64,000 bases of DNA, taken from NCBI RefSeq assembly GCF_003018255.1, contig NZ_CP027440.1. One strand, 5' to 3'. Positions 60,440-61,325 of this stretch are shown here, piece after piece. The stretch is from Escherichia coli (GTDB lineage: Bacteria > Pseudomonadota > Gammaproteobacteria > Enterobacterales > Enterobacteriaceae). The position numbers and the translations under genes are program-made. How positions within the stretch are numbered: position 1 is the stretch's first letter; each line of letters begins with the position of its first letter. The notes below the pieces were generated by a model. That model made no database searches, was not told the origin of the DNA, and worked only from the letters and a program-made list of their open reading frames with translations.

Positions 60440-60545
60440 GGCGGATAGGGCGTTTACGCCGCATCCGGCGGTTATGCGCCGATGCCTGATGCGACGCTGG
60501 CACGTCTTATCATGCCTACAAGTCTGCGAATATTTTGCGAGCCGC
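60440..60545. repeat. REP (repetitive extragenic palindromic) element cluster upstream of rayT
   Basis: gccgcatccggc and tgcctgatgcgacgc palindromic units typical of REP/BIME. Confidence 0.55.
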
Positions 60546-60614
60546 TTTCCCGATATAACACACCCTCATTGTCGACTTTTCCTTTTCTTCTTACCGTTGA
60601 GAAAAGGAGCCGCT

Positions 60615-61112
60615 ATGTCTGAATATCGTCGTTATTACATCAAGGGTGGAACATGGTTTTTCACGGTAAATTTACGGAATCGTCGAAGCCAACTTTTGAC
60701 CGCTCAGTTCCAGATGCTCCGTAACGCCATTATTAACGTTAAGCGAGACAGGCCTTTTGAAATTAACGCCTGGGTCGTTTTGCCGGAACATATGCACTGT
60801 ATCTGGACATTACCCGAAAGCGATGATGATTTTTCCTCTCGCTGGCGGGAGATTAAAAAACAGTTCACCCATGCTTGTGGATTGCAAAATATGTGGCAAC
60901 CGCGTTTTTGGGAGCATGCCATTCGCAATACCAAAGATTATCGTCATCATGTTGATTATATTTACATAAATCCAGTGAAACATGGCTGGGTAAAGCAGGT
61001 GAGTGATTGGCCATTCTCAACGTTCCATCGCGATGTCGCGAAAGGTTTATATCCCATCGATTGGGCGGGGGACGTAACGGATTTTAGTGCCGGGGAGCGT
61101 ATTATTTTATAA
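60615..61112 (+). CDS. rayT: REP-associated tyrosine transposase (RayT, TnpA-REP)
   Basis: ORF 60474-61112 trimmed to ATG 60615 (MSEYRRYYIKGGTWFFTVNL...); flanked on both sides by REP elements. Confidence 0.8.
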   Translation: MSEYRRYYIKGGTWFFTVNLRNRRSQLLTAQFQMLRNAIINVKRDRPFEINAWVVLPEHMHCIWTLPESDDDFSSRWREIKKQFTHACGLQNMWQPRFWEHAIRNTKDYRHHVDYIYINPVKHGWVKQVSDWPFSTFHRDVAKGLYPIDWAGDVTDFSAGERIIL

Positions 61113-61325
61113 TTGTGCGCCGGTGCCGGATGCGCTTACGCTTATCCGGCCTACAAATCTGTGCCTTAACGGTAGGCCGGATAAGGCGTTCACGCCGCAT
61201 CCGGCGGTTGTGCGCAGATGCCTGATGCGACGCTAGCGCGTCTTATCATGCCTACAAATCTATGCCTTAACGGTAGGCCGGATAAGGCGTTCACGCCGCA
61301 TCCGGCAATTGTGCACCGATGCCGG
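61113..61325. repeat. REP/BIME cluster downstream of rayT (two near-identical palindromic units)
   Basis: Two copies of cttatccggcctacaaatct(g/a)tgccttaacggtaggccggataaggcgttcacgccgcatccggc. Confidence 0.65.

What the first reader, a model, noticed from the sequence alone, without database searches (positions are those of the whole stretch)
60440..61325. rayT flanked on both sides by REP elements (a REPtron-like arrangement)
The tyrosine-transposase-like RayT gene has REP units immediately upstream (overlapping its leader) and two near-identical units downstream. These are the cognate substrates such enzymes act on, and the array sits right next to the Flag-2 deletion scar.
Basis: partly seen in the sequence, partly recalled or inferred. 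Interest (0 to 1): 0.3.

Follow-up and report, generated by a model that had tools for sequence, protein, structure and literature searches.

The report
The known E. coli rayT REPtron
This is the well-studied E. coli "REPtron": a single-copy, domesticated transposase gene (rayT) sitting between copies of the short palindromic REP repeats it cuts. It is real and correctly read, but already published in detail.

Summary
rayT (60615-61112, +) encodes a 165-aa protein about 95% identical to the crystallised E. coli MG1655 TnpAREP (PDB 4ER8). All published active-site residues are present: H59-M60-H61, Y115, N119, H123, E161.

There are six REP units, not three. One REP/iREP pair (a BIME) lies upstream at 60436-60519. 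Two tandem 101-bp BIMEs, four units, lie downstream at 61123-61306. Each unit has the 5' GTAG and folds into a hairpin with an internal mismatch. They are the only REPs in the 64-kb window.

They belong to the genome-wide family. The array matches a median of 34 or more places per E. coli genome, whereas rayT itself matches one. Rfam's REP325-derived naRNA4 model also hits two of the BIMEs above its gathering score.

Array length varies between strains: 2-4 units upstream and 2-7 downstream in those sampled. Some strains have lost rayT, either to hicAB or by clean deletion.

Two side claims fail or stay open. The Flag-2 deletion junction is about 1.7 kb away, and strains with an intact Flag-2 cluster carry the same REPtron. 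"Overlapping its leader" could not be tested.

All of this was published by Ton-Hoang 2012 and Messing 2012. Verdict: already known, low interest.

The parts
59681..60439 (+). yafL (NlpC/P60, C40 peptidase), the upstream neighbour. Its TAG stop codon (60437-60439) forms the last three bases of the GTAG of the first REP.
   Evidence: Pfam PF00877, 114 bits; annotated as yafL in orthologous loci; sequence read.
60436..60469 (+). Upstream y-type REP: a GTAG followed by an imperfect palindrome.
   Evidence: Three mismatches to the y unit found downstream. Folds at -10.3 kcal/mol with the GTAG unpaired and a 2-nt internal mismatch. Orthologous to the y REP at the 5' end of the K-12 REPtron (PMC3333891).
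60470..60483 (.). Short 14-nt linker between the REP and the inverted REP of the upstream BIME.
   Evidence: Sequence. This is the most variable stretch between strains.
60484..60519 (-). Upstream z-type inverted REP (iREP). It reads GCCTGATGCG...ATGCCTAC on the + strand and so provides a C|T in CTAC.
   Evidence: Two mismatches to the downstream z unit. Folds at -7.5 kcal/mol. The whole BIME 60439-60516 matches Rfam naRNA4 at 62.1 bits, above the gathering score of 59.5.
60615..61112 (+). rayT (tnpAREP, yafM): a 165-aa HUH/Y1 REP-associated tyrosine transposase.
   Evidence: Match to PDB 4ER8 at E = 3e-113. NCBIfam NF047646 at 176.6 bits against a cut-off of 80. H59-M60-H61, Y115, N119, H123, E161, R21, K82, Q95 and W99 are all present (translation; residue roles from PMC3479197).
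61123..61154 (-). Downstream unit 1: a short inverted REP, GTAGGCCGGATAAGCGTAAGCGCATCCGGCAC on the - strand. K-12 has a longer z-type unit at this position.
   Evidence: Folds at -10.7 kcal/mol, z = -4.45. Together with unit 2 it can form a long head-to-head hairpin, -29.6 kcal/mol, z = -6.6.
61172..61205 (+). Downstream unit 2: a y REP.
   Evidence: Exact match to the y pattern. Folds at -12.1 kcal/mol, z = -4.5.
61220..61255 (-). Downstream unit 3: a z-type inverted REP.
   Evidence: Folds at -9.6 kcal/mol. The BIME 61175-61252 matches Rfam naRNA4 at 78.5 bits.
61273..61306 (+). Downstream unit 4: a y REP, identical to unit 2.
61141..61327 (.). Tandem repeat of a 101-bp BIME unit, 1.9 copies. 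It ends in a truncated linker plus GCCGGAT, 2 nt before the lfhA stop codon.
   Evidence: Tandem Repeats Finder: period 101, 90% matches, score 318. Strain DETEC-S792 lacks exactly one 101-bp unit.
61330..63051 (-). lfhA (fhiA) remnant of the Flag-2 cluster, the downstream neighbour, convergent with rayT. Homology to intact LfhA begins at residue 125, so the deletion junction is at about 63014-63051.
   Evidence: Pfam FHIPEP profile positions 99-656 of 657. BLASTP against the intact 697-aa FlhA of strain 1332KP: 97% identity over residues 125-697.

Best explanation
This is the orthologous copy of the E. coli REPtron, at its conserved chromosomal position between yafL and lfhA.

rayT encodes a monomeric HUH/Y1 single-strand DNA endonuclease. 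In the published mechanism it binds a folded single-stranded REP hairpin through the 5' GTAG tetranucleotide and the stem mismatch. It then cleaves at C|T dinucleotides on either side of the hairpin, for example in the CTAC of an inverted REP or in a linker, through a covalent 5'-phosphotyrosine link to Y115. It is Mn2+-dependent and can rejoin strands. A C-terminal tail carrying E161 blocks the active site and keeps activity very low.

The flanking BIMEs are the enzyme's cognate substrates and members of the roughly 600-copy REP family of E. coli. RayT acting in trans is the presumed agent that spreads, diversifies and tandemly amplifies REP/BIME (REPIN) units. The gene itself does not move.

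Shown here:
- the identity of the gene and its intact catalytic residues;
- the anatomy of the six REPs;
- their membership of the dispersed family;
- single-copy rayT;
- variation in array length between strains.

Shown in the literature for the roughly 95%-identical K-12 protein: binding, cleavage and strand transfer in vitro.

Inferred only: that RayT drives REP dissemination or array length change in vivo, and that this allele is active.
For: Gene identity:
- About 95% identity to 4ER8 TnpAREP.
- NCBIfam REP_Tyr_transpos at 176.6 bits against a cut-off of 80.
- All metal-binding, catalytic and DNA-contact residues named in PMC3479197 are present.

Substrates:
- Six REPs, each with GTAG and a mismatch-bearing hairpin.
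- CTAC and GGCC|TACA-type cleavage motifs are present at 60516-60519, 61148-61155 and 61252-61255 (sequence; motif from PMC3333891).

Conserved position: the order yafL-BIME-rayT-BIMEs-lfhA is seen in K-12-like and other strains.

Copy number:
- The unique part of rayT matches a median of one place per genome, in 3574 of 5426 genomes.
- The REP array matches a median of 34 places, capped by the tool, in 5425 of 5426 genomes.
- Rfam naRNA4, built from REP325, hits two of the BIMEs above its gathering score.

Dynamics:
- There are 2 to 7 units downstream and 2 to 4 upstream across ten strains.
- rayT is replaced by hicAB in one lineage and deleted with the BIMEs retained in another. Both were described in PMC3333891.
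Against: - No in vivo transposition of E. coli REPs by RayT has been demonstrated. Ton-Hoang et al. found only minor differences in REP number between strains with and without tnpAREP.
- A 2024 mobilome study found no circular REP DNA.
- Change in tandem BIME copy number could equally arise from replication slippage or RecA-dependent unequal exchange between 101-bp repeats.
- Pfam Y1_Tnp matches only at 16.3 bits, below its gathering score of 23. This reflects the divergence of the RAYT clade.
- The source genome of the window was not available, so its own REP census was not made.
Confidence: 0.93

Rival explanations
1. The REPs at this locus matter mainly as host-serving structural or regulatory elements, and their adjacency to rayT is only a historical relic. 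In this reading the upstream BIME is an intercistronic mRNA-stabilising or attenuating hairpin between yafL and rayT. The downstream array is a bidirectional transcription barrier between the convergent rayT and lfhA genes, or a gyrase/HU (naRNA-like) site. RayT would no longer act on them.
For: - REPs fill both intergenic spaces completely. The yafL stop codon lies inside the first GTAG, and the array ends 2 nt from the lfhA stop codon.
- No intrinsic terminator or promoter consensus was found in 60300-61450, so the hairpins are the only obvious RNA or DNA structures there.
- The BIMEs match naRNA4, a nucleoid-associated RNA family.
- RayT is auto-inhibited (PMC3479197).
- REP numbers barely differ between strains with and without rayT.
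Against: - This reading is not exclusive of the REPtron reading.
- The catalytic residues are fully conserved, and the protein is kept intact in 3574 of 5426 genomes.
- The K-12 enzyme cuts exactly these BIMEs in vitro.
- Flanking by cognate REPs is a general property of RAYT genes across bacteria (PMC3116915 and PMC5581495, listed).
Confidence: 0.25
2. It is an autonomous IS200/IS605-type insertion sequence whose subterminal hairpins are the REPs, and it is still mobile as a unit.
For: - The layout of hairpin, Y1 transposase and hairpin resembles IS200/IS605.
- There is a weak Pfam Y1_Tnp match.
- Nine matches of the rayT-unique probe lie on plasmid records (not followed up).
Against: - There is one copy per genome, always between yafL and lfhA in every locus examined.
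- The number of flanking REPs is variable and asymmetric.
- The protein carries the RAYT-specific C-terminal auto-inhibitory tail and belongs to the NCBIfam RAYT equivalog.
- The literature concludes that REPtrons do not transpose as a unit.
Confidence: 0.02
3. The palindromes are chance GC-rich inverted repeats or ordinary terminators, unrelated to REPs.
For: None beyond their intergenic position.
Against: - No matches are expected in shuffled sequence.
- The units are 91-100% identical to each other.
- They match dozens of sites per E. coli genome.
- No T-tract terminators were detected.
Confidence: 0

Closest known systems
E. coli K-12 MG1655 REPtron (yafL - BIME - tnpAREP/rayT/yafM - BIMEs - fhiA). 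Sources: Ton-Hoang et al. 2012, NAR 40:3596 (PMC3333891); Messing et al. 2012, NAR 40:9964 (PMC3479197, PDB 4ER8).
   Same: - Same chromosomal position and gene order.
- Same number and orientation of REP units, two upstream and four downstream.
- Same y REP followed by a z-type inverted REP upstream.
- All catalytic and DNA-contact residues are identical.
- The protein is about 95% identical.
   Different: - Nine amino-acid substitutions: T30A, Y32F, H37N, K41N, G69S, K91Q, I93M, R143K, S165L (K-12 residue first). None is at a residue the structure paper names as functional.
- The first downstream unit is a shorter inverted REP here, against a z-type unit in K-12.
- The locus as a whole is about 91% identical in DNA.
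- dinJ-yafQ is absent upstream of yafL in this window.
REPIN-RAYT systems. Sources: Bertels & Rainey 2011, PLoS Genet (PMC3116915); Bertels et al. 2017, GBE (PMC5581495).
   Same: - A single-copy, vertically inherited, domesticated Y1 transposase flanked by its cognate REP doublets.
- The head-to-head pair 61123-61205 folds into a long REPIN-like hairpin.
   Different: REPINs were defined in Pseudomonas with other REP sequences. The E. coli elements are usually described as BIMEs made of y, z1 and z2 units.
IS200/IS605 family insertion sequences (TnpA Y1 transposases such as IS608 and ISDra2).
   Same: - HUH/Y1 chemistry on single-stranded DNA.
- Subterminal imperfect hairpins, with a 5' tetranucleotide guide.
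   Different: - RayT is a monomer and is auto-inhibited by a C-terminal tail.
- It prefers Mn2+ and needs only a CT dinucleotide for cleavage.
- It is single-copy and does not move as a unit.
- Pfam Y1_Tnp matches below its gathering score.
Rfam RF02564 naRNA4 (transcripts of the REP325 BIME array).
   Same: The BIMEs at 61175-61252 and 60439-60516 match the model end to end, at 78.5 and 62.1 bits against a gathering score of 59.5.
   Different: The match reflects shared BIME sequence. There is no evidence that these copies are transcribed into a nucleoid-associated RNA.

Membership tests
RAYT / TnpAREP (REP-associated tyrosine transposase) | HUH motif plus a single catalytic tyrosine on helix alpha-D, with further metal ligands (H59-M60-H61, Y115, N119, H123 in E. 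coli numbering). | tested here: met
   All are present at the same positions in the 165-aa translation. Residue roles come from PMC3479197.
RAYT / TnpAREP (REP-associated tyrosine transposase) | A C-terminal extension of about 25 aa with E161, absent from IS200/IS605 TnpA (the auto-inhibitory tail). | tested here: met
   The tail ...DWAGDVTDFSAGERIIL with E161 is present. Only the last residue differs from K-12.
RAYT / TnpAREP (REP-associated tyrosine transposase) | Scores above the curated cut-off of the family model. | tested here: met
   NCBIfam NF047646 (equivalog) at 176.6 bits against a cut-off of 80.
RAYT / TnpAREP (REP-associated tyrosine transposase) | Typically one copy per genome. 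| tested here: met
   The rayT-unique probe matches a median of 1 and at most 2 places per genome, in 3574 genomes. The window's own genome was not available.
RAYT / TnpAREP (REP-associated tyrosine transposase) | Mn2+-dependent binding, cleavage and strand transfer of single-stranded REP DNA. | not testable with these tools
   Shown in vitro for the roughly 95%-identical K-12 protein (PMC3333891, PMC3479197).
E. coli REP / BIME repeats | A conserved GTAG tetranucleotide 5' to the foot of the palindrome. | tested here: met
   Six of six units.
E. coli REP / BIME repeats | A 30-40-nt imperfect palindrome with a mismatch or bulge in the stem. | tested here: met
   Units are 32-36 nt, and all fold with a 2-nt internal mismatch after the outer stem. 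Free energies are -7.5 to -12.1 kcal/mol and z-scores -2.9 to -4.5.
E. coli REP / BIME repeats | Extragenic, and paired in inverted orientation with short linkers (a BIME), often in tandem. | tested here: met
   All units lie between coding sequences. Orientations alternate +/-, -/+/-/+, and there is a 101-bp tandem period.
E. coli REP / BIME repeats | High copy number, dispersed around the genome. | tested here: met
   The array matches a median of 34 places per genome, capped at 40 pieces, in 5425 of 5426 E. coli genomes. Rfam naRNA4 (REP325) hits occur above the gathering score. The literature counts 584 REPs in K-12. No census was made in the source genome itself. Within this 64-kb window the six units are the only copies.
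REPtron | tnpAREP bordered on both sides by cognate REP/BIME units. | tested here: met
   One BIME lies 95 nt upstream of the ATG, and two BIMEs start 11 nt after the stop codon.
REPtron | In E. coli and Shigella, a single conserved locus between yafL and fhiA (lfhA). | tested here: met
IS200/IS605 insertion sequences | Multi-copy and mobile as a unit, with a TnpA protein that passes Pfam Y1_Tnp. | tested here: not met
   Single copy at a fixed locus. Pfam PF01797 scores 16.3 bits, below its gathering score of 23.

The most novel reading that the evidence does not exclude
Two changes fall at this locus. Strain DETEC-S792, identical to the window through the upstream BIME and the 5' part of rayT, lacks exactly one 101-bp BIME unit. 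A recombination breakpoint also falls inside rayT at about 60752-60788, with about 10% divergence between allele lineages. Both might be footprints of RayT-mediated cleavage and strand transfer acting in cis at its own locus. They need not be ordinary slippage or RecA-mediated exchange. If so, the REPtron would be a self-generated recombination hotspot.
Probability: 0.07. Interest if true: 0.45.

Novelty: already known. Interest (0 to 1): 0.1.

Why it matters
REP/BIME elements make up about 1% of the E. coli genome, and RayT is the prototype of a domesticated prokaryotic transposase. The locus is therefore biologically important. This copy adds nothing new in kind: it is an allelic variant of a locus whose structure, biochemistry, strain distribution and loss events were published in 2012.

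Its practical value is for annotation:
- The six palindromes should be labelled REP/BIME.
- ORFs called across them are spurious, and Rfam naRNA4 hits there reflect BIME sequence only.
- The Flag-2 scar should not be linked to the array.

Tried and rejected
- A fuzzy-regex REP census over the whole window timed out. It was replaced by blastn-short and by a simple search for GTAG followed by a hairpin. That search misses the short asymmetric inverted REPs and gave two non-REP false positives, at 6822 and 21446.
- Three REP-like word clusters were read directly. The one at 40907 is a plain terminator-like hairpin. Those at 44320 and 46082 lie in Rhs-type coding sequence. None is a REP.
- Pfam at the default threshold gave no family for RayT. 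A relaxed search gave only a sub-threshold Y1_Tnp match. NCBIfam and the PDB search settled the identity instead.
- The promoter and terminator scan of 60300-61450 found nothing, so the 'leader' claim could not be evaluated.
- I considered that the window might come from another Escherichia species, because the locus is only about 91% identical to most E. coli. I rejected this: the surrounding 12 kb is 99.2% identical to E. coli strains, and the low local identity comes from divergent rayT allele lineages and recombination.
- Linkage of the array to the Flag-2 deletion is rejected.

Full report
**What is in the sequence**

- The interval lies between yafL and a remnant of lfhA. yafL (59681-60439, +) is an NlpC/P60 peptidase, Pfam PF00877 at 114 bits. 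The remnant is an N-terminally truncated FHIPEP/FlhA-type gene (61330-63102 ORF, -), matching Pfam profile positions 99-656 of 657.
- Between them is one ORF whose biologically sensible start is the ATG at 60615, preceded by AAAAGGAG. It gives a 165-aa protein ending at 61112.

**The gene is rayT**

- The protein matches one PDB sequence, 4ER8 chain A, 'TnpArep', at E = 3e-113. The match runs over residues 1-164 at about 95% identity.
- It passes the NCBIfam equivalog NF047646, 'REP-associated tyrosine transposase', at 176.6 bits against a cut-off of 80.
- Pfam Y1_Tnp (the IS200-like family) is matched only weakly, at 16.3 bits against a gathering score of 23. This fits the published view that RAYTs form a separate clade of Y1 transposases.
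- Messing et al. (PMC3479197) name the functional residues, and all are present here:
  - the HUH motif H59-M60-H61;
  - the catalytic Y115;
  - the metal ligands N119 and H123;
  - the auto-inhibitory E161 on the C-terminal tail;
  - the DNA-contact residues R21, K82, Q95 and W99.
- The nine substitutions relative to K-12 are at positions 30, 32, 37, 41, 69, 91, 93, 143 and 165. None is a named functional residue.

**The repeats**

There are six REP units, not three.

| Position | Strand | Type |
|---|---|---|
| 60436-60469 | + | y-type REP (upstream) |
| 60484-60519 | - | z-type inverted REP (upstream; 14-nt linker from the first) |
| 61123-61154 | - | short inverted REP |
| 61172-61205 | + | y REP |
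| 61220-61255 | - | z inverted REP |
| 61273-61306 | + | y REP, 34 of 34 identical to the other downstream y REP |

- The type labels y and z follow the Bachellier/Ton-Hoang nomenclature as I recall it. The consensus figure was not available to me, so they are assignments by resemblance.
- The downstream units form a 101-bp tandem repeat (61141-61327, 1.9 copies, 90% matches).
- Every unit starts with GTAG. Each folds as single-stranded DNA into a hairpin with the GTAG unpaired and a 2-nt internal mismatch. Free energies run from -7.5 to -12.1 kcal/mol and z-scores from -2.9 to -4.5.
- Ton-Hoang et al. and Messing et al. showed that these two features are required for TnpAREP binding and cleavage.
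- The head-to-head pair 61123-61205 can also fold into a long REPIN-like hairpin, -29.6 kcal/mol, z = -6.6.
- The repeats fill both intergenic spaces. The yafL stop codon TAG is part of the first GTAG. The array begins 11 nt after the rayT stop codon and ends 2 nt before the lfhA stop codon.
- The C|T cleavage dinucleotide, for example in the GGCC|TACA context described in PMC3333891, is present in the CTAC of each inverted REP.

**More than chance, and part of the genome-wide family**

- Shuffled sequence gives 0.00 expected matches for either consensus.
- Within the 64-kb window these six are the only REPs. Three other clusters of REP-like words proved to be a terminator-like hairpin and Rhs coding sequence.
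  - The downstream array alone matches 5425 of them, at a median of 34 places per genome.
  - A probe confined to the unique leader and 5' part of rayT matches a median of one place per genome, in 3574 genomes.
- Independently, Rfam's naRNA4 model (RF02564), which I understand to derive from the REP325 BIME array elsewhere on the chromosome, matches 61175-61252 at 78.5 bits and 60439-60516 at 62.1 bits. Its gathering score is 59.5.
- The palindromes therefore belong to the dispersed REP/BIME family. The literature counts 584 REPs in K-12.

**Comparison between strains**

- The order yafL-BIME-rayT-BIMEs-lfhA is the same in a K-12-like strain, 2014C-3338, JNE23-011 and DETEC-S792.
- Array length varies:
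  - DETEC-S792 is 100% identical to the window through the upstream BIME and the 5' part of rayT. It lacks exactly one 101-bp unit downstream, leaving two REPs instead of four.
  - NCTC11151 and 1332KP have intergenic spaces of about 318 bp with more units.
  - KV7 has two BIMEs upstream, and an IS1397 inserted in the downstream array. IS1397 is known to target BIMEs (references).
- rayT has been lost in some strains:
  - Replaced, together with its BIMEs, by hicAB in PI6.
  - Deleted with the BIMEs retained in GPEC1356.
  - Absent, with only 97 bp left, in WWCOL-236.
- Ton-Hoang et al. 2012 described the first two loss modes, and the variable number of flanking BIMEs, for 110 genomes.

**The side claims**

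- *Next to the Flag-2 deletion scar.* The array abuts the 3' end of the lfhA remnant. Homology to intact LfhA starts at residue 125, which puts the junction with lafU at about 63014-63051, roughly 1.7 kb away. Strain 1332KP has full-length Flag-2 flhA and flhB next to the same REPtron. The array is therefore independent of the deletion.
- *Overlapping its leader.* The upstream BIME ends 95 nt before the ATG. No promoter-like or terminator-like site was detected in 60300-61450. The rayT 5' end is unknown, and co-transcription with yafL is possible.

**How it works**

The following is established for the K-12 ortholog in vitro (PMC3333891, PMC3479197, PMC8266576):

- The enzyme is a monomer and acts only on single-stranded DNA.
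- It recognises the REP hairpin, the stem mismatch and the GTAG.
- It cleaves at C|T on either side of the hairpin, forming a covalent tyrosyl intermediate, and it transfers strands.
- It strongly prefers Mn2+ and is throttled by its own C-terminal tail.

That RayT spreads and amplifies REP/BIME units in vivo remains an inference:

- REP numbers differ little between strains with and without rayT.
- A mobilome study found no circular REP DNA.
- The gains and losses of single tandem units seen here could be slippage or unequal exchange.

**Verdict**

It is the textbook E. coli REPtron, so it is already known and of low interest. The only mildly new points are the mosaic rayT allele, with a recombination breakpoint at about 60752-60788, and the exact one-unit difference from the strain that matches the window's upstream half. 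Both are ordinary population-level variation unless shown otherwise.

Noticed in passing
window 60271-60788: The locus is a recombination mosaic. Against strain JNE23-011 the window is identical except for a patch of 48 differences at 60271-60752, about 10% divergence. Against DETEC-S792 it is nearly identical up to 60788 and divergent from there to 61272. The breakpoint therefore lies inside rayT, between deeply diverged allele lineages.
   Followed up: partly
window 59379-59680: The dinJ-yafQ toxin-antitoxin pair lies between dpaA (yafK) and yafL in K-12-like strains. It is absent here, leaving only about 300 bp. It is also absent in JNE23-011, DETEC-S792, NCTC11151, 1332KP and GPEC1356.
   Followed up: partly
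window about 63014-63051: This is the Flag-2 deletion junction. The lfhA remnant starts at residue 125 of the intact 697-aa protein and overlaps the start of lafU, an OmpA/MotB-like protein (Pfam PF00691). Strain 1332KP (L006) keeps intact flhA and flhB at this site.
   Followed up: partly
window 61087-61236 and 61218-61349; L005 2396-2554: ORFs of 43-49 codons run through the BIME array. RefSeq annotates one such ORF as a 'hypothetical protein' in NCTC11151. These are almost certainly artefacts of the repeat sequence.
   Followed up: no
window 60439-60516 and 61175-61252: Rfam naRNA4 (RF02564) matches these BIMEs above its gathering score. An automatic pipeline would call sRNA genes here, although the match reflects only shared BIME sequence.
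   Followed up: no
L009 3259-4607 (strain KV7): An IS1397 copy is inserted in the BIME array downstream of rayT. This fits the known specificity of that IS for BIME palindromes.
   Followed up: no
E. coli genome search: The rayT-unique probe matched 9 places on records typed as plasmids. This is unexpected for a fixed chromosomal single-copy gene. It may reflect mis-assigned replicons or chromosomal segments captured on plasmids.
   Followed up: no
window about 44290-46170 and about 48670-52400: There is Rhs-type coding sequence (YD-repeat-like, for example 44290-44409). Short words also recur at 48680, 50432 and 52395, which suggests duplicated Rhs or ISAs1 (H-repeat) segments. The closest strains carry ISAs1 and RHS genes in this region.
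   Followed up: no
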